Assembly (NCBI GenBank): GCA_951406725.2 | Contig: OX597814.1 | Location: 161,944,001-162,008,000 of the forward strand | From: Octopus vulgaris | Lineage: Eukaryota | Direction: 5' to 3' | DNA: 64,000 nucleotides | Part shown: positions 19,658 through 37,305 of the stretch, in pieces | How the letters are laid out: each line of letters begins with the position of its first letter | Numbering within the stretch: the first letter of the stretch is position 1 | Notes under the pieces: generated by a model | Told to the model about the DNA's origin: nothing | The model's input: only the letters and a program-made list of their open reading frames with translations | Database searches by the model: none | Translations under genes and position numbers: made by a program

Positions 19658-20140
19658 CATGTGTGTGTGTGTGAGGTGAATGGTAGATTATAGCTGTAAA
19701 GGACATGCCTTTATATAACGGATGGTCATGATTTTACTTAGCTTGATATGTCTTCTCAAGGACAGCAAATTACCAGAAGTCTCAGTCCTTTGTTATCTCC
19801 TCAGTGAGGTTCAATATCTGAAGATCCTTTCTCATCCCTTCATCCTATGTCTTCCTGGGTCTACCCTTTCCACATGTTCCTTCCACAATTAGATATCAGC
19901 ACTTCTTTATTGCAGCTGTCCTCATCCATGCACATCACATGACCACACTTGCATGGTCTCTTGCACACAACATCTGATGCTTCTTATACCCAACCTTTCT
20001 CTTTAATCATTTACACTCTGTCATACATGCACATTGACATTAACCATCGAGCAGAACATGCTGACATTATTTTTTTTAAGCCTTCTCAAGTCCACTGCAG
20101 TCACAGTCTATGTTTTGCTATCATGTAGCATAGCTGTTCA
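18520..20140 (-). mobile_element. RTE LINE 3' portion with expanded (CCT/CAT/CAC)n tail and purine-rich/(TG)n interruption
   Basis: Tail at 18520-18682, then the 3'UTR motif. The RT C-terminus resumes at ~19720-20140 (minus strand GTCGKGRPRKT, WSCDVHG). Confidence 0.7.
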
Positions 20141-20164
20141 TATATATATATATATATATATATC

Positions 20165-20190
20165 ATCAATCAACATCATCATCATCATCG

Positions 20191-20223
<33 letters not shown>

Positions 20224-20541
20224 TCATCATCATAAACATTTAACATCCATTTTCCATGCTGGTATGGATTGGATGGCTTAACAGGAACTGGCAAGGCTAG
20301 GGGCCACACCAGATTCCATAGTCTGTTTTGGCTTGGTTTCTTTAGCTGGATGCCCTTCCTAATGCCAACCACTTCACAGTATACTGATGCTTTTTACATG
20401 ACACTAGCACCTACACTAATGCTTTTTATGTGGCACCTTGATTTTAGGATATCAATTCTGTTGTGGTGTGTAGGTCTTCTTGAGTACAGAAATGCACCAC
20501 ATTCTTTGGTTCTTTGTCATCTCTTTCATAAGGCTCAGCAT
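20165..20541 (-). mobile_element. RTE LINE 3' end
   Basis: (CAT)n tail plus TTTAACATCCATTTTCCATGCTGG 3'UTR motif. Confidence 0.7.
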
Positions 20542-20554
20542 GTGTGTATATATA

Positions 20555-20600
<46 letters not shown>

Positions 20601-20607
<7 letters not shown>

Positions 20608-21480
20608 AGAGGGAGATAGAAATGACTATTTCTTTGCATGCTGAAAATATATGCTTTAATAAAACAGCTATAATTCACCTTGATATGAAAAAAGCTGTCG
20701 CCAGGCAAGATGAACAGAATAATTCTTTTTAAAAATTACTGAGTTAATAGTGTAATATAGTTTTGGGTTTAACTTACAAATTAAATAAATTAATTTAAAA
20801 AAGTTAATTTAATTTAAATTTGTCTACTATGACCTTCCTCAGCATTATCCCTCCATATTTATGAAAAATATGAATAATTTTAAATATATTACCCTATTCA
20901 TTCACAGCCATTTGAATTTCAAGGTATAATAATATTTCAAAACATGAGTGAAAGAAAGCTAAACTTCCTTATCAAGTTTCAACATGCTTCTGCCTAGTGG
21001 CAAAATCAAATATACATATATAAAAAGAGAGGGAAATAGAAATGACTATTTCCTTGCATGTTGAAAAATAGATACTTAATGAAAAATCTATAATTCACCT
21101 TGATATAAAAAAAAGCTGTCAGCAGGCAGGATGAACAGAATAATTCTTTTTAAAAATTACTGTGAGTTAATAGTGTACTACAGTTTCAGGTTTAACTTCC
21201 AAATTAAATTAATTAATTTTTTAAAAATTTAATTAATTTAAATTTGTCATAGGCGTAGGAGTGGCTGTGTGGTAAGTAGTTTGCTTATCAACTACATGGT
21301 TCCGGGTTCAGTCCCAGTGCGTGGTGCCTTGGGCAAGTGTCTTCTTCTATAGCCTCGGGCTGACCAAAGCCTTGTAAGTGGATTTGGTAGAAACTGAAAG
21401 AAGCCCATCATATATATGTGTATGTATGTGTGTGTGTGTGTGTGTGCGTGCATGCATGTGTGTGTGTGTGTGTGCATGCA

Positions 21481-21514
<34 letters not shown>

Positions 21515-21753
21515 CTTGTGTGTCTGTGTTTGTCCCCACAACATTGCTTGACAACTGATGCTGTTGTGTTTACTTCCCCGTAACTTAGAGGTTCAGCAAA
21601 AAGAGGCCAATAGAATAAGTACTAGGCTTACAAACAATAAGTTCTGGGGGTCGATTTGCTCGACTAAAGGCAGTGCTCCAGCATGGCCACTGAAACACGT
21701 AAAAGAGTAAAAGAGTAAAGAGAGTATAACCTTCCTCAGCACTATCCCTCCAT
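20601..21753 (+). repeat. Local direct duplication (~260 bp aligned, ~420-bp period); second copy split by a SINE
   Basis: 20601-20858 recurs at ~21018-21248 and resumes at 21726-21753 (ACCTTCCTCAGCA.TATCCCTCCATAT). Confidence 0.8.
21249..21725 (+). mobile_element. Full-length SINE family 2 (tRNA head, CORE-like domain, internal (TG)n, (AAAAGAGT)n tail)
   Basis: GGAGTGGCTGTGTGGTAAG (A box) and GGGTTCAGTCCC (B box); CCTTGGGCAAGT CORE-like motif; tail GTAAAAGAGTAAAAGAGTAAAG. Confidence 0.85.
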
Positions 21754-22646
21754 ATAGTGGAGTGAATTATATCAAGATGAATTATGTATTTATATCTTTC
21801 CAAGTCCTAGCTCACTTTTTCTCTAAAGATGGAACAGATTACCATGAAAATGATGGTTGTGGACTCCTTGCAGGAAATTGCACCAATTGCACATCTATTC
21901 TTGAAACAGCTGTAAGATGCACATCTTCTTCCTTCTTATCCAGCTTTGGATTCTGGACTTTACTTGTGATGACCTACCTTAACCTACTATTTAATAACAA
22001 TAATACAGACTTTCCTTGTAACTGTTCTGGGAGAATGCCAGCATGCATCACAACCATTATGAACATACCTGAACTGATTTTTTTTATTGATATCATTAGA
22101 TCTATACTCCTGAAACATTTCAGATCCCTTTCTATCTTCAAGCTATGTCAATGCATAAATATCATAATCTGACCAGATACCAGTTGTTTGCCTGTCTATA
22201 TTTTTATGACACACATACATGTATATATATATATATATATGGCTTAACTGGTCAAAACTTCAAAGCCACTGCCCATAGTATTCTTGTTTAAGAATAAGAA
22301 ATCTGTACTCTACAAAAGTATTGAGTAACCCCATCAAATTAATGTAAAGTTGTTTTTATTAAACCTGAACATAAAACACACACAATGATGAGGCAAATTC
22401 ATAAGCATGTAATTTTCAGCAAATAATTATGTTGCCCAGTCAGTTGAATTAATGAAATATTTGTGTGTCTTATGAAGCTTAAAATACCAAATATGTTTTC
22501 TGTATTTTAACAATACTCTGTGTGTGTGTGTGTGCACGCATGTGCTTGGGAAAGTGAACATTAAGATGATGATAATGATAAGGGGATACATACATATATG
22601 TATATGTGTGTATATGTGTGTATGTGCATGCATGTGTGTGTATGTG

Positions 22647-22679
<33 letters not shown>

Positions 22680-22900
22680 ATTATAAAGAGAAGAAAATGC
22701 ACAAATTCTTTTGTATTGTAATTAATGAAATTATTCCAGAATACATTATTACATGTTCCAAAATGTTTTATTACATACCAATTTCATGTCTCATGGAATT
22801 TAGTCATTTTAATGTACATGTGTAAGGTCTGACTGTTAGCTTTCAGTTAAGATATACAGATATATTATGTAGCATTGAAGAGAAGTAATAGATGCACTTG

Positions 22901-24421
22901 GTAACAATGGAAAAAGTTCTTTGGCTGACCAAGATATTCTCAGGGAATGTGACCAAATGAGGTTTATTTTTCAACATAGCCTGCCTTGTGGTCCAAAGAG
23001 TTCTTCTATTGATGTTGCAGTACTTGGATCGCATTAGTGAAGAAGCTGTCTTCCTGTTGGTCAAGCAAAGTCAGCAACAACAGATATGACATCATCATCA
23101 CTGTGATACTCATTCCCAGCCAAGTGTTTCACAGATGATAGTCAGATGGGGTGAAATGAGGAGAATAGGAATGCTGATCAACCATTTCAAAGCCACGGTC
23201 ATGCACAGGGGCTATTGAAGTTAAGGACTTGTATACAGAGCATTTTCCTCATGAAACAAGACACCTTTTGTTAGTTCTCCTTAGTGTTTAGTCTTATTAG
23301 CCTTTTGTAACTGCATTGGCAAGTTAGAATTGTACTCTTCATTGACAGTGTGGCCTTTTTGGAGATAGTCAATGAGCAATGCCTTTTGCAGCCCCAAAAT
23401 CTCAGGCCATCACCTTCCCTGCAAATGAAACAAACTTGGCCATCTTTGGAGCAAGGGAGGAGAGATGTTTACATTGTATGTATAGCTTCTTTGTCTCTGG
23501 CTCAAAGTGATGAACCCAACACTCATCCTAGGCATGGAAATGTTCAAGAAAACCAGCAGGATCTGCCTCAAACAATCTCAGATTTTCCCATGATGTTATC
23601 AGCCTGGTGTGCTTATCATCAGGTGTCAGAAGACATGGCAGCCACTGAACAGAAACCTTCATTGTGCCAAGTTCATGGTACAGAATATTCTCAACCCTCA
23701 TGGGATATGCTAATGACATTGGCTATTTGATATATAGTTAATCGCCTGTCATCCATCACCTTGTGGTGAACATGATCAATGTTTTCCTCAGTGGTGGAAG
23801 TTGCAGATCTTCAGTCATCTTCAAAACTCTCTCTTTCTCTCTTAAATTTAGTTACCCACTTTTGCACTTTTGATAAAGCTAGAGCATCATCCTTTAATGT
23901 AGCAATTATGTTAGCATGTATGTTGTTGGAGGTATAACCCCTCTTCTGCAGGTACTTATTTTCTTTTTTTATTTTCTTTATTGCCCACAAGGGGCTAAAC
24001 ACAGAGGGTACAAACAAGGACAGACAAAGGGATTAAATCAATTACATCGATATCAGTGCGTAACTGGTACTTAATTTTATCGACCCTGAAAGGCAAAGTC
24101 GACCTCGGCAGAATTTGAACTCAGAACGTAACGGCAGACGAAATACAGCTAAGCATTTCGCCTGGTGTGCTAATGTTTCTGCCAGCTTGCCACCTTTCTT
24201 CTGCAGGTACTTGATAACACCACAATGCCGAATTTTGTCCATTTTCAAGAGAATTCACTACCAGTTACTTTTGAAGTGTTTTCTGAACAGTCAGATGTCA
24301 CTTTACCTGGAAAAAATAATGCACTTATTAACAAGTAGAGTTGAAATTAATGCATGCAAGATTCTAAAGCTGTAGCATCACTTCTTCATAGTCAGTCTAT
24401 GAACATTTCAACACATCTTCA
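22901..24421 (-). mobile_element. Near full-length degenerate mariner, family A, interrupted by a SINE
   Basis: MDKIRHCGVIKYLQK, ENILYHELGTMKVSVQWLPCLLT (WVP-like motif) and RLFEADPAGFL; degenerate TIRs at both ends. Confidence 0.88.
23958..24196 (-). mobile_element. SINE family 1 nested in mariner A
   Basis: Perfect 16-bp TSD TCTTCTGCAGGTACTT at 23942-23957 and 24197-24212. Confidence 0.9.
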
Positions 24422-25659
24422 TGCATACTTTAAATATTCAAAGACAAATGTACAAATCTATTTTAACAAACAATATTTAAATTTAAAATGTGTCATAATT
24501 ATTGATTTAAACTTGGTTTATATTCTATTATAAAAACAATCTCTTTTTAAGCCTATTAGAGACTAGTAACTTGTCAATCATTTGTTTTTTTGTCTTTTTG
24601 GTGTGTGTGTGTCTAAGTGTGGGGAGGGCCAAGCTGAATATATGACAATTTTTCCCTGTTGTCAATTGTATGAAAATAATGTATCATGACATGTATTAAA
24701 AAAAAATAGCCTGTCATAGACAAATGGTCTGTGAACCATATTTTGGCTATCTGAAAGAACTTATGAATCTCACTTTCTGGTTTTATTGTCACCAATAGCT
24801 ATAGGCAAGTTGTCACATTTTGCTTTATTCACCATTTAACTTCACCCTTGACTTGACTTCTCCAAAAGTCCAAAAGTGTGTAAGTTATCAACAATATATT
24901 TACTGCTGTCAGATATTTGCTCATAAATATGGTTACTTTATAGACATGAGCACATGTATGTATATATTCTATAATACTTACCACATTGCATTATTCTATT
25001 AACTTTATAAACAATAAATATATATGTACTTTTCTGCAACACATTATCCATTTGGCTAAGTAAAACACAAATATTTATATACATTTTTTACACATTTACA
25101 TAGAATTGCCATGATTAATGTTATAAATTGAGGTTTTCCACATTTGAATCCTGTCTGATCTTAATCTGTAAGTTAGAGCACTTGCTGTGCAATAATTATT
25201 GCTTCATATATTGTCCTAACTTGGAGATGGTCATTTTATTTATTTATTTATTCATTTTTTGGCCAATTAAACACACGCAGTATTTATTTGATCTTCACTT
25301 TAGTTTTATTCATATTATTTTTAGTTTATACATCTGTCAAAGTTCTTTCATCAAATATTCTGTGACCTCATCATTGACTCTCAGTCCCATGTGTCTCCTC
25401 CTGTCCTGCTTTGTTTCATCAATAAGGTCAGAAGAGATCTATTTTCTGCTTAGCATGTTGATATGCTTTAAATAAAAGGGGAAAATTATATATAATTCAT
25501 TATTGTTATTTCTATGAATGTTCTTTTAATTTCCAATAATCTCATAAGAACCAAAAAGGAAGTCATCTTTGATACAAAGTGGTATAATTCAAGTTATTTC
25601 TGTTCATTGCATCAATGTGTGTGTGTGTGTGTATGTGTTTACATATATACATATATAAA

Positions 25660-25807
25660 TTATAGCTTGCATCCCAGCCACACAGTTCCAGGCTCAATCT
25701 CACTGTGTGACACTTCGGACAAGTGTCTTCTTCTATAACCTCAGACTGACCAAAGCCTAGCGAGTAGATTTGGTAGATGGAAACTGAAAGAAGCCTGTTG
25801 TATATAC

Positions 25808-25887
<80 letters not shown>

Positions 25888-26135
25888 ATATGTATATGAT
25901 CTATCTATCTATCTATCTATCTATCTACCTATCTATCTATCTGTCTGTCTGTCTGTTTGTCTATCTATTTATCTGTCTGTCTGATTATCTATGATATATA
26001 TATGGATATATGTGGATATATGTATTGTATGTGCATGTGTCTTTCTCTCTGTCATTGTCTACCACCACCACCAAATTCTTCAAGGTGATGCCCCAGCATG
26101 GTAGCAGTCTAATGACTAAAACAAGTAAAAAGATA
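25660..26135 (+). mobile_element. Degenerate SINE family 2 with internal (TATC)n expansion
   Basis: GACCAAAGCC..GATTTGGTAGATGGAAACTGAAAGAAGCC, then (CTAT)n, then CCCCAGCATGG..AATGACTAAAACAAGTAAAAG 3' part. Confidence 0.65.
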
Positions 26136-26140
26136 GAAGA

Positions 26141-26196
<56 letters not shown>

Positions 26197-26306
26197 ATAT
26201 AAATATATATATATATATAAGTGTATGTATGTATATATATATGTATATACATATATATATATGTGTGTGTATGTATGTATGTATATATATATGTGTGTGT
26301 GTGTGT

Positions 26307-26341
<35 letters not shown>

Positions 26342-26610
26342 TGTATATGTGAGCTCACTTTATCATGCTGGCTGTATATAATTTTTGCATGCTCATTTTG
26401 ACGTAAGAGCTTAGCAGAGATTCACGCATGAACGAACAGAAAACTCTACAACTCAACAAATAGTTTCACCCAGTTATAGCTTCAAACATTAGTCATTATA
26501 CTCTACCCCAACACTAATGTTAAGCATATAAAGTCACACCTACTACTCAAGAAGCCAGTATAATAAAGCTGACCACAAGCAAAACTTGAAAGGTATTGTC
26601 AACCTTTCCC

Positions 26611-26656
<46 letters not shown>

Positions 26657-26993
26657 AATAAATCTCTGAGCGAGATATAAACAGTAACTGCTCTATAACA
26701 TAAGGGGGATCAGCCATCTGACTGTGGCTATGGTCAGGGCGGGGTGGTGGGGGTGTTACTGATGCATTTAGCCCCAGGCGAACATCAACGTCACCAGAAG
26801 GGCTGACACCATCTCGGTGTCCTTGCCAGCCTGCAAAGGGAGATCAGCCTCCCCGAAGATACGGATACTACATACGGACTGGTTTCGAGGTTATTGCCTC
26901 ATTATTGTTTTCGAACGGATTTTCTACGCCAGTGACTGTGGTTACTGTGAAAATCTATATATCCAGCCTGTAGAGGAAGTCCCTCAACGAAGA

Positions 26994-27057
26994 GCGGTGC
27001 TTACCATACGTTGACAAGAGGCAATAACCTCGAAACCGGTCCGTATGTAGTATCCGT
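26994..27057 (+). ncRNA. Minimal type I hammerhead ribozyme, copy 1 (U3-A8 variant)
   Basis: Stem I CATACG(27005-10)/CGTATG(27042-47), extendable with bulges to 26994/27057. Core TTGACAA; stem II GAGG-caataa-CCTC; GAAA; palindromic stem III ACCGGT; predicted cleavage after GUC at 27041. Confidence 0.8.
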
Positions 27058-27351
27058 ATCTTCGGGGAGGCTGATCTCCCTTTGCAGGCTGGCAAGGACA
27101 CCGAGATGGTGTCAGCCCTTCTGGTGACATTGAAGTTCGCCTGGGGCTAAATGCATCAGTAACACCCCCACCACCCCGCCCTGACCCTAGCCATATTCAG
27201 ATGGCTGATCCCCCTTATGTTATAGAGCAGTTACTGTTTATATCTCGCTCAGAGATTTATTATTGTTTTCGAACGGATTTTCTACGCCAGTGACTGTGGT
27301 TACTGTGAAAATCTATATATCCAGCCTGTAGAGGAAGTCCCTCAACGAAGA

Positions 27352-27415
27352 GCGGTGCTTACCATACGTTGACAAGAGGCAATAACCTCGAAACCGGTCC
27401 GTATGTAGTATCTGT
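27352..27415 (+). ncRNA. Minimal type I hammerhead ribozyme, copy 2 (U3-A8 variant)
   Basis: Identical core CATACG-TTGACAA-GAGG-CAATAA-CCTC-GAAA-CCGG-TC-CGTATG at 27363-27405; predicted cleavage after 27399. Confidence 0.8.
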
Positions 27416-27577
27416 ATCTTCGGGGAGGCTGATCTCCCTTTGCAGGCTGGCAAGGACACCGAGATGGTGTCAGCCCTTCTGGTGACGTTGATGTTCGCCT
27501 GGGGCTAAATGCATCAGTAACACCCCCACCACCCCGCCCTGACCCTAGCCACATTCAGATGGCTGATCCCCCTTATG

Positions 27578-27615
<38 letters not shown>

Positions 27616-28057
27616 TCACACACACGCGTATATAAATATACACAACACAGATGCATGTATACATAGATACACACATAATTACCTTCATATATATATATAT
27701 ACACATATATACATATACATGTGTGTGGGGGGGGGTAATAAAAAGAGCAGAAAATTTTTTTGATATTTTTACATTTTAAAAAGCAGGATAGAAAAGCTTC
27801 ATCCATGTTACTTTAAGAGAATGATCAGTTGATGGCATTGCTCAAAATCAAGTTGCAATAATCCTATATATATATGTGTGTGTACATGCACACACATTTT
27901 CTCACACATATACACACACACACGCGCACACACACACACACACACATACACACACACACCACACACACCGCGCACACAGACACACACACACACAAATACA
28001 TGCACATTCTTGTAAATAGGCTACAGCTTTACTTTGAGTGTGTGTGCACGCACAATA

Positions 28058-28090
<33 letters not shown>

Positions 28091-28307
28091 CATGCTTTGC
28101 TATGTACACAATATGAATAGGCTATGATTTTACTATACTGTTAAATGCACATTTGAAGACATAATAAAAGAGTCTATTTTCTCAGGGAACTGATTTCTTA
28201 ACCAGATTTTGATACCTTGTGGAGAAATTCTTCCTTTAGGATACTAAATGAAAGAAGTAATAGCACAACACAACTTCAGTTCTTGTTGTATGTGCATGCA
28301 TAATATT

Positions 28308-28755
28308 CTTTTCTATTCTAGGCACAAGGCCCGAAAAGTTTGGGGAGGGGGCCAGTTGATTAGATGAACCCCAGTATGCAACTGGTACTTAAATTATCGC
28401 CCCTGAAAGGATGAAAGGCAAAGTCGATCTCGGCAGAATTTGAACTCTGAATGTAAAGACAGATGAAATACTGCTAAGCATTTTGCCTGGTATGCTAACG
28501 TTTCTGCCAGCTTGCCGCCTCTTGCATGCATAATATTAGTTAGAAGTTTATGGTGAGGGGTAAGTTGATTACATGGTGAGGAGTAAGTTGATGCCATTGA
28601 CCCCAGTGCTCAACCAATACATACTGTATCAACCCCAAAAGGACGAAAGGCAAAGTCAACCTCAGTGGCATTTGAACTTGGAACATAAAGATGGTCGAAA
28701 TGCTGCTATGCATTTTGTCAGGTGTGCCAATCATCCTGCCAGCTCACCTCCTTAA
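28308..28755 (-). mobile_element. Two tandem SINE family 1 copies sharing a target site
   Basis: Copies at 28308-28522 and 28538-28755. TGCATGCATAATATT occurs at 28293 and 28523, and TGTATGCATAATATT at 28756. Confidence 0.85.
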
Positions 28756-28821
28756 TGTATGCATAATATTAAAAGATAAATAGATGCTTACTGAATACAT
28801 ATTTTGTGTATTGATCTATCC

Positions 28822-28825
<4 letters not shown>

Positions 28826-28854
<29 letters not shown>

Positions 28855-29255
28855 TGTATGTATGTGTGTGTGTATGTATGTATGTGTGTGTGTATGTATG
28901 TATGTATGTATGTATGTATGTATGTATGCATGTATGTATGTGTGTATGTGTGTATGTATGTATGTATGCATGTATGTATATATGTATGTATGTATGTATG
29001 TATATATGTATGTATGTATGTATGTATATATATATGCATGTATGTATGTATGTATGTATGTATGTGTGTATGTATGTATGTATATGTGTATGTATATATG
29101 TATGTATGTATGATGATGATGATGATGATGTATGCATGTATGTATGTATGTATGTATGTATGTATGTATGTATGTATGTATGTATGTATGCATGTATGTA
29201 TGTACGTATGTATGTATGCATGTATGTATGTATGTATACATGAGTGTGTGTGTGT
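28826..29255. repeat. Long (TATG)n microsatellite with embedded (GAT)n
   Basis: Read directly. Confidence 0.95.
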
Positions 29256-29578
29256 TTGTTTCTAAATATATGGATAGCATAAATATATGTGTGGCATAAA
29301 TATATGTGTGACATAAATGTATGCATGGCATGCATAAATTTTATCACATAACCAGCTAGTTTCTAGCATTTGGTTGATAATTTTCATGCTATATGATCTG
29401 CCCACTTCATAGCTAACTTTGTACAGCAAAGACAACAACAAAAGCATAAATTGAAGACAGAAAGAAACTTCTCAATGAATGACAGCTAAATTATTGACCA
29501 AGTATCTATCAGTTGAAGGAAGAATATATCATGCTCATTTCTAATATACTTTATCAAATAAATCAGCTATCTTGGTTA

Positions 29579-29615
<37 letters not shown>

Positions 29616-30778
29616 AGTATAACCCATGCTAGCATGGAAAACGGACGCTAAACGATGATGATGATGATATATATTGTTGGCATCCTTTTTGTCTCGGGAG
29701 ACATATATGTATATATATATATATATATATATACTCATTTTTCCATCCCACACATTAATGTCTACTACGAGAGCCTGTGCTTAGTGACATCAGCACAATA
29801 TTCTTTAAAACATTCGTTTCCATCAAAGAATTAGTTTTCATGTACTGACATTTGATTTTTTTTTTTTTAATATTGTTAATATTTTGTCATTTTAATGTAC
29901 TTAGTAAAACTGTCATTTGTATCAATAGAAATTTCAAAAATAGAATTACTTTGACGTTGTAGCCATCTTTTCTGATTATCATTTAGCAATTTGGATACAC
30001 TTTATTCTAAGATAAAAAAATTTAAATTCTGCTTAGTATGCAGCTGTGTTTTAATTATGCTGAAACTATCAATTATGCACTTTTTCACTCAGACTAATAC
30101 ATGTTTTTTTAAGGATTACTAACCATATCATTTGTTAAAATCTTATTCCAGTCACTATATTGTACCCAAGGACAGGAATTGCAATTCCAAGTCTTTGTTT
30201 TAGAATTTTCTGAAGTCTTTTTAATTTTGTTTGCTTGTTGTTAACTTTTTCTAAATTTGAAAATTCAAATTTATATTACTGAAAGGTTTTCATAAAGTAA
30301 AATCAGGTAGTGAAAATAAAGTCAGAAATTTTTTCAAACTGATTTTGAAATTTAAATTCAAATCAGGTTTCAATAAAATGTAAAATTCAAATTTTAATCA
30401 ATAAAAAGATTATCAATTTTATACTGAATTTTGATTTGTCTCATATTTCATCTTTGGATACTTGCTTTTCAAATTTTATTTGAAATACATCTCACTTTTA
30501 TCAATTAGTAATTTTAAACTGTAAAATAAGTAAAAAAAAAAAAAAAAAAGAGGCAAATTGCAAGTAAAATTATCTCCATTCAAAATTCTAATTGTTTGTT
30601 CAACTAGAGAAGGCCCATAACTCTACTTACTCATGTTTCTGAAGTTTCTTTCCTAATTCACATAAATTTTATCATATAACCATAGAAACCAAGCCAAAGT
30701 AGACACAAGTATAATGCACTCCTCTAACCCATTAGATACTGTCAAACCATTCATCCCATGCCAGTATAGAAGATAGAC

Positions 30779-31142
30779 AAGGCAGCGTGATGGCAGAAAC
30801 ATTAGCATGCCGAGCAAAATGCGTAGCCGTATTTCATCTGCTGTTATGTTCTGAGTTCAAATTCCGCTGAGGTCAACTTTGCCTTTCATCCTTTCAGGAT
30901 CGATAAATTAAGTACCAGTTACACACTGGGGTCGATGTAATCGACTTAATCCTTGTGTCTGTCCTTGTTTATCCCCTCTGTGTTTAGCCCCTTGTGGGTA
31001 GTAAAGAAATAGGTATTTCGTCAGAATTCTGAGTTCAAATTCTGCTGAGGTCAACTTTGTCTTTCATCCTTTTGGAGTCGATAAGTTAAGTACCAGTTAA
31101 GTTAAGGCCCGAAAATTTCAGGCCTTGTGCCTGGAGTAGAAA
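30779..31142 (+). mobile_element. SINE family 1 fused to a second partial copy
   Basis: Full head and body to ~31010, then a second GAGTTCAAATTC..GTACCAG segment; flanking AGTAT(A/G)GAAGATA direct repeat. Confidence 0.8.
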
Positions 31143-31339
31143 AGTATGGAAGATAAGCATTAAAAGCTGCTGCCGCTGCCGCTGCCACTGGCCATTGTTG
31201 CTGCTACTACTACTACTGCCACTGCTACTACTGCTGCTACTGCTGAGTTATTGCCCACTTGAAGGAGATTTAGCAAATATTTCAAGCAGATTGTGCATTC
31301 ACATACAGACATCCATCATTAGCTCATTAGCTCAGACAA

Positions 31340-32102
31340 TCACCTTTGCAGATGAAATGACCTTGGCCTTCTTTGGAGCCAGTGAGGAGCAGGGTGTTTC
31401 CACTACATGGATTTTTCTTTGTCTCTGGCTTAAAGTGATGAACCCAATAATCATCCTGTTTTGGAAACGTTCAAGGAAATCAGCTGGATCTGCCTCAAAC
31501 AATTTCAGATTTTCCCATGATCAGCCTGGTGTGCTTATGATCAGGTGTCAGAAGACATGGCAGCTACTGAACAGAAACTGTCATCATGCCAAGTTCACTG
31601 TGCAGACTATTCTCAACTCTTTCACAGGATACGTTAATAGTATTGGCTATTTGATTTATAGTCAATCACCTGTCACCCATCCCCATGTGGTGAACATGAT
31701 TAATGTTTTCCTCAGTGGTGGAAGTTGCAAGACTTCCAGACCTTGAGTCACCTTCAACATTCTCCCTTCCCTTCCCCTACTAAGTTCAGCTACCCACTTT
31801 TGTACTGGTGATAAAGCTGGAGTGTCATCCTCTAGTGTAACAACCATTTCAGCATGAATGTTGTTGGAGGCATAACCCTTTTTCTACAGGTACTCTACAC
31901 CACAATGCCAAATTTTGTCCATTTTCAAGAGAAGTCACTACTAGTTACTTTTGAAGTGCTCTTTGAACAGTCAGATATCAGTTTACCTGAAAAGAAACAT
32001 TGCAGTTATTAATAAGTAGAGTCGAAATTAATGCATGCAAGATATCACAGCTGTAGCATGACTCTTTTGTAGTCATCCTATGAATTTTTCAGCCCACCCT
32101 CA
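31340..32102 (-). mobile_element. 5' half of mariner family A
   Basis: TIR CCTATGAATTTTTCAGCCCACCCTCA|TA at the right end; DDTPALSPVQKWVAEL; homologous to ~12794-13550. Confidence 0.88.
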
Positions 32103-32229
32103 TAGTTAATGGAAGATGAACATGATTTTTACAGCATAGAAATCCTACTGGAACCAGATAAGCTAGGATTTAATGCAGGGATTATAAATGATAGCAGGAG
32201 ATCTCCAAAAATAAAATTAGAGTAGAATT

Positions 32230-33250
32230 AATAGGGTAGAGAAAGGAGATAGCTATAGAAAGAATTGACAAGAGAGTGGTTAATAACTAATTTAGAAGGG
32301 GCTGTTAGAATGGTCTTTACTACCAAAATGGTAGTACCAACAAATGGTAGCAAATGACATGTGATCATTTGTTTGACATTGTTCTTTGCATTGTTCAAAC
32401 TAATGTGCATTTCCTAAAGTACTGATTGATCTAGGTAGCAGAAGCACATTATAAAACTGAGGTTTTGATAGGTAATGTAGGGTGTATAATGTCCAATTCC
32501 AAGTGGATGTAAGTAGCTTTTTAACAGCACTTTGTTGAACTGCCCTGGAAAAGAGGTGGGTAATAGATGGTGGACTTCTTCTATAGTCAGCTGCAAATCA
32601 CCAAGGGAAGGAGTGGAGTGGTGTGCAAATGCAGTTTCAGTTTTTCAAGTAACAAACATTTTATCTAGTTGCGCAAGGAGTAAATTTCCAGAACTGAATA
32701 GTTTTCCCTACTTCACTGTAGCATGCTATATTTGTTCATTCTTCTCTTAGCAGAAGTGTTTTAGAACTAGAATCAGTTCAGATAAATGGAATTCCAGCTG
32801 TATGAGCTGATGAGTTGTGGAATTACTGAGGCAGGATGTAAACAAGAACTACATTACAGAAAATGTCAGGCCTGTTACTCAATTAAATAGAGAGTTTAAA
32901 ATTTTTGCCAAGGTTGGTACTTTTTATGAATAGTATTGTTGGCCCTGCACTAACCTGTGCAGTCAGGGACAGACTTGTCATGAACAACCTTCAGCATATG
33001 TAATACATTGTAGAGAGGTTTTGTTCTTGATCAGGTTTTAGGGTAGCACTGATCAATCTGGAATCATTTAAAATGTTCCATAGAGTTTACAAGTGGTACC
33101 TGCTGGCTGTATAATATACAATCAGTTTCAGTTAGGTATTTAAGGATGGGACAGCTGCATTGTTCAGTTGCATTTTATTTGTGTTTGTAGAGGTAAATAG
33201 CCACCTAATAGAACAGTTTAATATTGAGCACTCAGACTGTCTGATAATAC
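32230..33250 (-). mobile_element. Probable old non-LTR retrotransposon remnant
   Basis: Higher-complexity sequence with weak RT-like fragments (LQLTIEEVHHLL); no clear catalytic motif. Confidence 0.3.
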
Positions 33251-34399
33251 ATAATGGAGGAGATATTTATCACTTCTGTTTATCTTTCAACATTTGATTC
33301 CTCTCAGCCCAATTCTGGATGAGACTGGCAGCCCCATCATCCTAGATCCAATTCCCCTGGTGGTCGGGGCCAAACCAACCCCAAACACTTTAACCTGACT
33401 GTTGTTCCAGTGACTGTCATCACTGCACCTGGCAGATATGAACTTGCATTTCCAGGTGTCTAGTTGCAAGCACACTAATTTGTTTTGATTAATGAGTGTT
33501 CTTTTACCAACCTAATATTCATTCAGTATGGTGTCGACCACCTCAATTTCCATTCTGTCCTGCATCATAACATTAAATATGTATATGTCAGTGAATAAAA
33601 TGTTATATTCAATTCATCATATTTCCAACAATAATACATTAATTATGAAATAATTGTGTCTTTAAAGAATGGAAGACTGTTTACACTTAAATATCGAAGT
33701 AAAACAAAGTATGATTCCTTACCACAAGTCATTGTTATCGAACTGCATCGAACTGCATGCCAGACACAACAAAGTCATCATTTGACTGGTAGAATATTGT
33801 TTAGTTATACAAGGTAAATGCTGTACCAGTTAACAAAACAACATTGAAAGACAAAATTCATGATGTGCTAGAGTTTTGTTCTGAACTGTCAGGCTACCTT
33901 TTTTTTCATATAACTAAAATAGTTGGTATTTCGCAAAGAAATATAATGAAACATTGATAATTGTTACAACAATGGCTTTATTTAATAAACTAAGTATAAA
34001 TTACAACCATATTTGTCTTTAGTTCATTTTATATCCAACTCCATTAACACATCCTCGGAATCTGCATTTATAATCATTGTCTTCAATTTAAGCTCATTTT
34101 AGGTGTCAACATAGAATAGTTGAGTCATTTATTCCAAAGTACATTCAGGCCAAGGACTATGAAACAACTTCAAGAAATCTCTGTAGGAGTCAAATGCAGG
34201 CTTCACTAGTTTGGCATAATCTTTACAAGCATGGAAGTACCACTAGTTTCCATGTTGGTCATCATGATCAGCATTATTAGGATACACATTCTCTACTACA
34301 CTAAGGTAATTTTGTAACCTGAAAAAAGAATAGATTTAAAGTTATTTAGCCACATCAAAGGCATTCCAGTCATGCTGTACAATACTATCCAAAGAAAAA

Positions 34400-34725
34400 G
34401 GGTAAAGACTCCCTTCATTCATGAATAACCATGGGATTGTACCTAGAAAGTTCCCCTCTGAAACACAATGTTATCCAAGGCAAAGGCCAATACCATTTGG
34501 TACCAGTCATGTCACAACTCATTTCTACACCCTTTTTCCCATGCCACCAATGTTATCCAAGAGAAAGGCAAAGGCCAATACAGTTTGGTACCAGTGATGT
34601 CACAACTCATTTCTACAGCTGAGTGAACTGGAGCAATGTGAAATAAAGTGTCTTGCTCAAGATCACAACACAATTCGGTCCAGGAATTGAACTCTCTACC
34701 TCATGATTGTTAGCTTGATGTTGTC
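34400..34725 (-). mobile_element. Degenerate SINE (third family) with internal ~65-bp duplication
   Basis: Minus strand has a GAGTTCAATTCC B box followed by CTTGAGCAAGACACTTTATTTCACATTGCTCCAG. CAATGTTATCCAAG..CAACTCATTTCTACA occurs twice (~34467 and ~34548). Confidence 0.55.
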
Positions 34726-37305
34726 TTCACAAAACTAAAGTATCCTTTTTTATAAGATAGTAGGATGTGAATTAAGGGAGCTTTTGACTGCTATTTCTAG
34801 CAGAGTGAGCGACTATGAAATGGCTTCTTCATTGAGTTGAGTATCTTTGGGATTGTAGTTACCTCTTTTGTTTGAGACTGTTTATAGATGTACATATACA
34901 AGGGGCACTATTTTACATACCACACCTCTGATTTACCAGTGAGGTAAAGCAACAAGGGAACATCCGTATAGTTGCTCAATCTGCTAGAAATAGCAACCCA
35001 ATTCTTCTTAGTTCAGCCTTTTTATCAACTTGAAAAAGAATGAACACTGGATGATGTAGTACTGAATACATTATCTAAAAATCAGATGGGACAGTTAATG
35101 CTGATCATTAGTCTCCTTAATTAGAGATAACCTCAAGCTAACTTTTATAAGTAGAAGGTCCTTCATGTTTACTTTCAGTGTGTTTTCTTACTGATCTTCT
35201 GACCCTGAGATCATAGGGACATTTTTTGTTATTATACCTCTAATTTTAATTATTTCCTCCTGGGAAATTTTTCAATCTCCTTCATAGAAATGTTTTTATT
35301 GATTGAACAAACACATCAATCAATGTGAAAATACTGCCTTTTCTTTTGTGTTTGGAGAAATGTCAGAATGAATCTGCTCCCTTTTTTTCTGTTTGTGTGT
35401 ATTTATACTTCTGAGATGGCAGTAATGTTCTATTTTCTACTATAACCTCTGATCAATTTCTATACTGATTTTCTTTCAAAGGAATTCTGTTTCTTTTGGG
35501 GTGGAGTGACATATTTTCAATGTTCATTGAAGCATTTTGCTGGCCTTGGACATCTATTTAAAAGGTGGACTAAAAGCTAGCCACATATTGCATGCAGACT
35601 TGATGTTTTGCTGTAACATGTAATCTTTATAGCACAAAGATTTTAACTTTTATAGAATTTTTTTATTGATTTCAAAGAAAGAAAGGGTTAGTGACCATTG
35701 CGTCTACAGTTCCTCAGTTAATGTCTCTCATGAATAGTTACAAGTTGATGTCTGCTGGAAAATTGGGCAAGGTCTGGAATTCTAGAAGGTTGACTTTCTT
35801 AAGAGCAGGGACTGAGATTAGAGGTTAAAGGCTTAACAAACCAGTAATTATTTAGATTTTTGTTGCCAATTTCAGATATACATTTTGGAGAAACAGATAG
35901 TAGTTCCATTGGTTGTCACAGTCAAATTTATTTATTTCATTTATTTATGAGGAGCAGGGTTGGATTTGTCCTCTGAAAGGTTTAAGTTTTCTCTTGCAAA
36001 GCTTGTTTTATAATCATTCTTATTTCTTTCACTTCCATCTTCATGTTTTGCCACTCATTGCAAGTATCGTAGGAGTTGTTCAACCCTTTATCAGTTCTGA
36101 AATTGATGATCAAAACCATTCCAACCATGACCATTCTGCCATTTTTCTCAGCTCAGTGCATGCTACATCACAGTACCTAACATGTTCTCCTTTTTGATAA
36201 GAACTAAGTGTACTTTAGGAAATATTTGGCAACTATTTCTAGCATATCTAGCGACCACTAGAAGGTTCCATCATTGGCTCAATGTACATTTTGTTATTAT
36301 TCCTATTTATGCTATGTATTCTTATGCTTTCTTTAGTCTCTACAGAGTTTCATTTCTTGATTTTGTCATTGTTGTGAGCTATGATGCAATGGCTGGTATG
36401 TGGAAGAGGGAGACCTAGGAAGACAGGGGACAAAGTACTGAGGGGTAACCTCAGGATGCAGCACCTTTCAGACGAGATGACAAAGGACCAAGATACGTGG
36501 CACCTGGCTGTACTCAAGAAGACTTGCACTCCACAGTAGAAGTATTAAAGCCACCCCCACCCCCTGCCAGCTCCAGTCAAACCATCTAACCTGTGCTAGC
36601 ATAGAAAATAGATATTAAATGATGATGATGATGATGATTGATGATGTAGCTGGAAAATATGAAGGTGCAACCCAGAGGCCCAGTGCTTTTGATATACTAT
36701 ATCCTCTTTCACTCACTCACTCTCTCTCTCCTTCTCCCACCTCTCTCTCTCCTCTCTCTCATCAAGGTTTATTCTGTGTATCCCAAGATACAGTGGTTTA
36801 TCACATGGAGAACAATGTAATATAGTCTGTATTAGCCTTCATATATATAATTGTTCTGATAAGACCAGATATTTGGAGGAAAGAGTGATTTTAGTGACTC
36901 CAGTATTTTGATCAGTAATTTATTCTATCAACGCTTGGAAGTAAAAAAGTTAATCACAATATGAAGGAAAGTATTCAACCATTTAAAGAGGTTTTAAAAA
37001 CAACTTCTTTCTCTAGTTTGCCTTGGTGTATAAAACAGGACATGTACATTAAGCTTTGTGATATAGTTTACTAAGCAATGAGTAGAGTTCAGGGCAAACT
37101 AGTGCAGGTTAGAATCAGCAAATAATGAGTACAAACAGTTCAAAATGGATTAAATCAATTTTTTAGGAGGGAACAGATAAGTCTGAAGTTTCATTTCTAC
37201 CCTTTCTGGAAATCATTTATATTTCTTCCAGCAAAAGATTTGTCCAAAATGTTAGACCTTTTTTCCTTTTCCTTACAGTAAATCAATTTATTCCTCCCTT
37301 TGAAC

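What the first reader, a model, noticed from the sequence alone, without database searches (positions are those of the whole stretch)
27005..27047. Hammerhead with non-canonical U3-A8 core (UUGACAA) and palindromic stem III suited to dimeric cleavage
Seen in sequence: CATACG-TTGACAA-GAGG caataa CCTC-GAAA-CCGG-TC-CGTATG, identical in both units (second copy 27363-27405). Both departures from CUGANGA (C3U and G8A) fall on the two partners of the known 3-8 Watson-Crick pair, so the change is compensatory; this argues for selection on catalysis and means CTGANGA motif searches would miss it. Stem III is only ACCGGU, which is self-complementary. As established for minimal hammerheads of PLEs and satellite DNA, two tandem copies can swap strands to form a 6-bp stem III in a dimer. 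Stem I extends with bulges over 26994-27057, which could provide a loop 2 tertiary contact (inference).
Basis: partly seen in the sequence, partly recalled or inferred. Interest (0 to 1): 0.85.

Follow-up and report, generated by a model that had tools for sequence, protein, structure and literature searches.

The report
Hammerhead retrozyme with shifting core pair
This is a likely self-cleaving hammerhead RNA inside a 358-base mobile repeat with hundreds of copies, likely copied by Penelope-type retrotransposons; its U-A core pair is a known variant, but related copies spread with all four C/U-G/A combinations at that pair, which makes them a natural test set for how much the pair matters.

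Summary
The motif is there as described, identical at 27005-27047 and 27363-27405. It is a type I hammerhead in a 358-bp non-coding repeat. The insertion (26652-27582) is an inverted 5'-truncated arm plus two tandem units inside (TA)n. Three mutually exclusive patterns find 876 related hammerheads genome-wide, controls 0. Stems covary, and two 43-mers co-fold best as a double hammerhead. Of 50 insertions with two outward 3' ends, 45 have one short and one ~43-nt longer end, the Penelope 'tail' signature. Verdict: a non-LTR retrozyme, likely mobilised by a Penelope-like element (PLE); cleavage is untested and no partner ORF was found. U3-A8 is already published in nature (PMC3088659, PMC4209133). 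U3-A8 likely arose from C3-G8 through U3·G8, and a young C3·A8 clade holds 18 insertions. So the change is compensatory over the lineage, but a Watson-Crick 3-8 pair is not needed for spreading.

The parts
26652..27582 (.). Whole insertion: inverted 5'-truncated arm plus 1.9 tandem units of a 358-bp non-coding repeat (retrozyme)
26652..26900 (-). Inverted arm, unit positions 118 to about 366; carries the long ('tail') 3' end
   Evidence: (I1)
26652..26693 (-). About 42-nt tail present at this end and absent at the right end
   Evidence: (I1 versus I2)
26871..26900 (-). 5'-truncated half hammerhead (stem II onward, stem III reads ACCAGU); lacks the 5' core
26901..27258 (+). Tandem unit 1 (358 bp)
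   Evidence: (D11)
27259..27582 (+). Tandem unit 2, ends at the short 3' end (unit position about 319-324); 98.8% identical to unit 1
26963..27092 (+). Predicted long rod that extends stem I and carries the hammerhead at its tip
27005..27047 (+). Type I hammerhead copy 1; U3 at 27011, A8 at 27016, palindrome ACCGGU 27035-27040, predicted cleavage after C 27041
27363..27405 (+). Type I hammerhead copy 2, identical; predicted cleavage after C 27399
27042..27399 (+). Predicted 358-nt monomer between the two cleavage sites; circular fold -119.3 kcal/mol, z -4.6 against 60 shuffles
   Evidence: prediction only
26616..26651 (.). (TA)n target, left flank
27583..27614 (.). (TA)n target, right flank

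Best explanation
The motif is a type I hammerhead inside a 358-bp non-coding mobile repeat (non-LTR retrozyme) that likely cleaves as a double hammerhead in tandem transcripts and is likely copied into (TA)n sites by the protein of a Penelope-like element. Shown: the motif, the dispersed family, the covarying stems, the tandem-plus-inverted layout, two fixed 3' ends about 43 nt apart, the TA-rich targets, and subfamilies with all four pyrimidine-3/purine-8 combinations. Predicted: two copies swap stem I strands and pair their ACCGGU palindromes into a 6-bp stem III, cleaving after GUC to release a 358-nt monomer. Inferred from the retrozyme and PLE literature: the monomer is circularised, and a PLE reverse transcriptase/GIY-YIG protein primes from both nicked target strands at two internal RNA sites, giving one long-ended and one short-ended arm of variable repeat number. 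The 3-8 pair in this lineage tolerates wobble or mismatch states well enough for them to spread; U3-A8 likely arose from ancestral C3-G8 through U3·G8.
For: Family: 121 matches from the 40 scored of 1724 candidates; 364 + 176 + 336 exact pattern matches, controls 0. Core: with the core left free, 409 matches, control 1; of the first 100 rows only 3 single copies depart at U4, G5, A6, A9 or G12-A15.1, while positions 3, 7, 8 and loop II vary by subfamily. Covariation. Stem III words: of the first 100 rows, 97 are perfect palindromes, 8 of them by a double change (ACUAGU 7, ACAUGU 1); older groups have ACCCGGGU, ACCUGGGU, ACUGCAGU. Folding: unconstrained co-fold of two 43-mers is the double hammerhead, -26.5 against 2 x -10.8 kcal/mol; in the tandem transcript the double form is -238.8, two monomer forms with a 1-bp stem III -226.5. 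PLE marks: of 82 independent insertions, 50 have two outward 3' ends; 45 have one short and one long end, 0 short/short, 0 long/long, 5 have an irregular end; 97 of 125 regular ends abut (TA)4+. PMC8557442 and PMC11167929 describe this tail and layout as PLE features. A young Neptune-type PLE in the same genome (150 of 150 scored matches identical in the endonuclease region) has its own U3-A8 hammerhead with ACCGGU and two ends 39 nt apart. Units within one insertion look copied from one template: 55 of 244 differences are alleles seen in 3 or more other insertions, chance 20.8%. History: C3-G8 in 27 of the first 30 oldest-group loci, U3·G8 in 22 of the first 30 of the ACCUGGGU group; tree.
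Against: No cleavage or circular RNA was shown. In the tandem transcript the double hammerhead lies 3.1 kcal/mol above the minimum-energy fold, and the inter-unit stem III has probability about 0.01; the long rod may trap monomer folds. C3·A8 and U3·G8 subfamilies spread, so full catalysis may not be needed. In PMC9901934 only the G-C swap rescued this pair in a type III hammerhead; other single and double mutants there, which would include U-A, were low. In preprint 10.64898/2026.07.22.740005 only 1 of 9 Xenopus retrozyme dimers cleaved in vitro. In PMC11167929 hammerhead mutants did not affect PLE insertion in vitro. No unit was seen joined to a PLE ORF as its pLTR, and the Neptune pLTR has no similarity to the unit outside the core motif, so the mobilising element is not identified.
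Confidence: 0.7

Rival explanations
1. The hammerhead is weak or dispensable. The repeat is a PLE-mobilised non-autonomous element copied from uncleaved linear tandem transcripts, and the motif is kept mainly as a folded structure or protein-binding site.
For: C3·A8 clade of 18 insertions at 0.7% from its column majority; widespread U3·G8; the 10.1-11.1 pair is unpaired in 10 of 25 rows; the double hammerhead is not the lowest-energy fold of the tandem transcript; PMC11167929 found cleavage not needed for insertion in vitro.
Against: U4, G5, A6, A9, G12-A15.1, U16.1 and C17 stay invariant in 25 of 25 rows that span a long branch of about 0.68 changes per site (rows were picked by a core pattern, but one search shows the same for U4-A15.1 without that filter in the young groups); position 3 stays a pyrimidine and 8 a purine at subfamily level; stem III keeps self-complementarity through changes of sequence and length.
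Confidence: 0.2
2. The copies are 5'-truncated pLTR remnants of an autonomous PLE family rather than a self-standing non-autonomous element.
For: Inverted arm, tail and TA targeting are the marks of autonomous PLE insertions (PMC8557442).
Against: Arrays of up to 5 or more head-to-tail units with no ORF between them; unit length about 357-360 bp is kept in older groups; tblastn with three PLE frames over the fetched loci (208 held, minus the 31 PLE loci, then) found only neighbouring PLE fragments, with no pLTR-ORF junction seen.
Confidence: 0.07
3. Ordinary satellite or minisatellite spread by DNA-level recombination, with the hammerhead a frozen relic.
For: Tandem arrays exist; the preprint 10.64898/2026.07.22.740005 discusses local amplification by unequal crossover.
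Against: Short arrays dispersed over many contigs with fixed 3' ends, variable 5' ends, the one-short-one-long rule and TA targets; RNA-type covariation.
Confidence: 0.03

Closest known systems
Metazoan non-LTR retrozymes (Cervera and de la Pena 2020, PMC7229834; e.g. Mytilus ~350-390 bp repeats)
   Same: Non-coding ~350-bp tandem repeats, each with a type I hammerhead and a short stem III; highly self-paired predicted circle; PLEs proposed as mobilisers.
   Different: U3-A8 core; palindromic insertions with a strict short/long end rule measured here; expression and circles not shown here.
U3-A8 hammerheads: natural examples in Perreault 2011 (PMC3088659) and Cercyon PLE pLTRs of Schistosoma mansoni (PMC4209133, about 1,300 hits)
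   Same: Same covariation at the 3-8 pair.
   Different: Here in a canonical 6-bp/4-bp type I fold within a tandem non-coding repeat, with U3·G8 and C3·A8 sister subfamilies also amplified.
EN+ Penelope-like elements, Neptune type (PMC8557442; mechanism in Poseidon, PMC11167929)
   Same: Partial tandem plus inverted 5'-truncated copy, tail at one end only, TA-rich targets, hammerhead with palindromic stem III.
   Different: No RT/GIY-YIG ORF; tail about 43 nt against the 30-40 described; no sequence link to the one Neptune pLTR compared.
Xenopus non-LTR retrozymes related to PLE pLTRs (bioRxiv 10.64898/2026.07.22.740005)
   Same: Non-autonomous tandem hammerhead repeats co-occurring with PLEs.
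   Different: There the link is sequence homology to pLTRs; here the link is insertion geometry, and homology to a pLTR was not found.

Membership tests
Hammerhead ribozyme, type I | Three-way junction with stems I and II and open stem I | tested here: met
   (pair probabilities 0.78-1.0)
Hammerhead ribozyme, type I | Core U4 G5 A6 N7, A9, G12 A13 A14 A15.1, U16.1 H17 | tested here: met
Hammerhead ribozyme, type I | Watson-Crick 3-8 pair | tested here: met
   U3-A8 in the window copies; family-wide 231 U-A, 102 C-G, 30 C·A, 1 other of 364 in the 6-nt stem III group; U·G common in the 8-nt group
Hammerhead ribozyme, type I | Stable stem III, as monomer or dimer | tested here: inconclusive
   Only 1 bp as monomer; 6 bp as dimer, favoured for short constructs, 3.1 kcal/mol above the minimum in the tandem transcript
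Hammerhead ribozyme, type I | Self-cleavage at NUH | not testable with these tools
   needs in vitro assay
Rfam hammerhead families | Covariance model match | tested here: not met
   No hit at E up to 10 for window 20000-35000 or for 4 loci with C3-G8 copies
Non-LTR retrozyme | Non-coding tandem repeat of 150-400 bp with a type I hammerhead in each unit | tested here: met
Non-LTR retrozyme | Dispersed multi-copy mobile family | tested here: met
Non-LTR retrozyme | Accumulates as circular monomer RNA | not testable with these tools
   only contigs of runs not on record as RNA were available
Penelope-like element (autonomous) | ORF with RT and GIY-YIG endonuclease | tested here: not met
Penelope-like element (insertion signature) | Partial tandem with inverted 5'-truncated copy and a tail at one end | tested here: met
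   45 of 50 two-ended insertions short/long
Penelope-like element (insertion signature) | AT-rich or microsatellite targets | tested here: met
   97 of 125 ends beside (TA)4+; no genome background was computed
Penelope-like element derivative | Sequence homology to a pLTR | tested here: inconclusive
   None to the two PLEs in L141; other PLE families of the genome not surveyed

The most novel reading that the evidence does not exclude
One retrozyme lineage has walked the hammerhead's 3-8 core pair through every pyrimidine-purine state, C-G to U·G to U-A to C·A and back to C-G, each state spreading as its own subfamily. Wobble and mismatch cores either still cleave in this scaffold, helped by the long stem I rod or PLE protein, or are cut in trans by strand-swapping with active sisters that share the ACCGGU palindrome, that is, ribozyme 'cheaters'.
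Probability: 0.25. Interest if true: 0.65.

Novelty: new member of a known kind. Interest (0 to 1): 0.4.

Why it matters
The family around it is more useful. It gives a natural series of U·G, U-A, C·A and C-G cores in one scaffold, which makes an open question directly testable: does hammerhead cleavage matter for the spread of retrozymes and PLEs? The strict one-short-one-long end rule ties a retrozyme to the PLE two-start-site mechanism seen in vitro, whereas published links rest on co-occurrence and pLTR homology in the parts of those papers that I read. Searches limited to CUGANGA would miss 261 of the 364 matches in the young group.

Tried and rejected
Rfam: no hammerhead hit for the window or for C3-G8 sisters; only microsatellite-driven miRNA noise. 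My early reading that U3·G8 is absent (at most 1 of 364) was an artefact of a pattern that fixed a 6-nt stem III; one search overturned it. Direction of change with only the distant outgroup: unresolved (AU p 0.41 and 0.32; 0.13-0.39); with denser sampling the U·G grade falls between the old C-G family and the 6-nt clade, but the order inside that clade is an open fork, so the full cycle is not shown. Idea that C3·A8 insertions are less often tandem: 2 of 22 against 13 of 56 for C3-G8 (counted by eye from the listings, the latter showing 100 of 102 rows), Fisher p 0.21: rejected. Idea that arrays mix several templates: no excess of shared alleles. The PLE beside a sister copy in L133/L141 as the direct parent: its pLTR is unrelated; PLE hits near other copies are neighbours. 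Per-copy core conservation was not used, since 90 of the 120 loci were fetched by core patterns. Sequencing runs: no RNA holder listed; contigs of 4 runs guessed to be RNA cover the unit but cannot show ends, strand or level; used only as a lead to older sister families. Target-site duplications cannot be read in (TA)n. Literature searches for natural mismatch cores or subfamily-level compensation: searches gave nothing beyond the papers cited; two searches found no retrozyme report for octopus. These searches cover only the held library. Lunse et al. (RNA Biol 14:1499) and Przybilski and Hammann 2007 (RNA 13:1625) were not read and may hold such variants; the supplements of the 2026 preprint are closed and those of PMC4209133 and PMC3088659 were not opened.

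Full report
Observation. The 43-mer is at 27005-27047 and again, identical, at 27363-27405. It parses as a type I hammerhead: 6-bp stem I, core UUGACAA, 4-bp stem II with a 6-nt loop, GAA, ACCGGU and C17. A descriptor allowing any Watson-Crick 3-8 pair found only these two sites in the window. Rfam gave no hammerhead hit, but it also missed canonical C3-G8 sisters in 4 loci, so the miss is not due to U3-A8.

Surroundings. The two copies lie in a 931-bp insertion, 26652-27582, between (TA)n runs. It is an inverted arm (26652-26900), a full 358-bp unit (26901-27258) and a partial unit (27259-27582). The inverted arm starts at stem II, so it carries only half a hammerhead. No frame of 100 aa or more overlaps the insertion. 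The genome is 2.8 Gb in 227 contigs; size and microsatellite load suggest an octopus-like animal (recalled, not tested).

Family. A DNA search returned 121 matches from the 40 scored of 1724 candidates. Exact patterns count 364 hammerheads with a 6-nt stem III, 176 with ACCUGGGU and 336 with ACCCGGGU, each with reversed control 0. The three patterns exclude each other and are lower bounds. Units of about 357-360 bp recur in the older groups.

Insertion geometry. The first 120 loci merge into 82 independent insertions. Fifty have two outward-facing 3' ends. Of these 45 have one short end (unit position 315-324) and one long end (362-367), none has two of a kind, and 5 have an irregular end; of the 32 with one 3' end, 18 are short, 13 long and 1 irregular. 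Of 125 regular ends 97 abut (TA)4+. PMC8557442 (passages) describes PLE insertions as partial tandems with an inverted 5'-truncated copy and a 30-40-bp tail often at one end only. PMC11167929 (parts 1-2 of 4) traces the tail to two internal reverse-transcription start sites and shows that both target strands are cut and extended. A young autonomous PLE of this genome, with RT, a Cys-rich linker and GIY-YIG as in Neptune/Nematis, has two ends 39 nt apart and its own U3-A8 hammerhead with ACCGGU. Its pLTR is otherwise unlike the unit, and no unit was seen joined to a PLE ORF. The mobiliser is therefore inferred to be a PLE but is not identified. Differences between units of one insertion show no excess of shared alleles (55 of 244 against 20.8% by chance). 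That fits copying from a single template, circular or a homogeneous multimer; it does not tell the two apart.

Structure. Stems I and II form with probability 0.78-1.0, at the tip of a long rod. Over 25 hand-picked representatives of young and old subfamilies, 92.4% of cells pair, 13 of 23 pairs change on both sides, 0 of 500 shuffles reach that, and slid structures pair 23-49% (rows are related, so this is not a probability; one false row from L128 was dropped before aligning). With the core left free in the pattern, only 3 of the first 100 of 409 matches depart at a catalytic position, each a single copy.

Dimer. Two 43-mers co-fold, unconstrained, into the double hammerhead (-26.5 against 2 x -10.8 kcal/mol). 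In the natural tandem transcript the double form is -238.8, two monomer forms with a 1-bp stem III -226.5, and the minimum-energy fold -241.9, in which G5-A6-C7 pairs with GUC. So the dimer is the only plausible active fold, but it is not the predicted ground state. Stem III stays self-complementary through changes: 97 of the first 100 rows are palindromes, 8 by a double change, and older groups have 8-nt versions.

The 3-8 pair. In the 6-nt group there are 231 U3-A8, 102 C3-G8, 30 C3·A8 and 1 other. I first read this as no U3·G8, but one search showed a U3·G8 subfamily (8 of the first 100 rows, 7 insertions) with the 8-nt stem III. Of the first 30 loci of the ACCUGGGU group 22 are U·G, 5 C-G and 3 U-A; of the first 30 of the oldest group 27 are C-G. 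In a tree of 59 rows without the two trait columns, the U·G grade lies between the old C-G family and the 6-nt clade (99/100), U-A appears twice, and C·A plus C-G form a clade (95/99) within the 6-nt group, whose base is an open fork. U3-A8 therefore likely arose stepwise through a wobble. The C3·A8 clade holds 18 independent insertions at 0.7% from its column majority, so it replicated with a mismatch. C7-G8 is a CpG, so G8A may be mutationally easy (inference). Whether the young C-G copies are a reversion is not settled.

Comparison with what is known. Natural U3-A8 covariation is in PMC3088659 (passages) and in Schistosoma PLE pLTRs, about 1,300 hits, in PMC4209133 (parts 1-2 of 4), which also sets out dimer cleavage through a palindromic stem III and reports low activity in vitro. 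Tandem type I hammerhead repeats of about 350-390 bp are the non-LTR retrozymes of PMC7229834 (passages and Discussion), expressed as circles in mussel, with PLEs proposed as mobilisers. Preprint 10.64898/2026.07.22.740005 (parts 1 and 3 of 5) links them to pLTRs and found cleavage in 1 of 9 dimers. PMC9901934 (passages) saw only the G-C swap rescue this pair in its hammerhead. PMC3884650 and PMC6765202 were seen as passages.

Verdict. A new retrozyme family of a known kind, with a known core variant; cleavage and circles untested. The added value is the natural four-state series at the 3-8 pair and the strict end rule. Searches found no report of such a series in the held library, but two key papers were not read. 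Interest 0.4.

Noticed in passing
L141:3314-7139 (G000:C1:68333013-68336838): Very young, high-copy Neptune-type PLE (150 of 150 scored matches identical over the 147-aa endonuclease region, 18,337 candidates); its pLTR has a U3-A8 hammerhead with a 2-bp stem II, ACCGGU and a GUA site, and two 3' ends 39 nt apart.
   Followed up: partly
L141:942-2273 (minus) and L083:1808-3029: A second PLE family, C-terminal part with Cys linker and GIY-YIG, about 97% identical between the two places.
   Followed up: no
L122-L127 (G000:C1:11168484-11169102): A 119-bp tandem array made of the 3' end of the older sister family plus its (TA)n target, six copies: a minisatellite born from a retrozyme end.
   Followed up: no
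L179-L208 and L239-L268: The 10.1-11.1 closing pair of stem II varies by subfamily (G-C, G·U, U·U, U-A, C·A), although it is usually a conserved G-C.
   Followed up: partly
L096 and L098 (G000:C1:67409516 and 67470907): Two insertions with identical sequence and flanks in inverted orientation 61 kb apart: a segmental duplication or an assembly duplicate; both were counted among the 82 insertions.
   Followed up: no
window 23598-24422, 28354-28753, 30779-32103: Other dispersed repeats of 66-89% identity, direct and inverted; the 218-aa frame at 31090-31746 has no Pfam match.
   Followed up: partly
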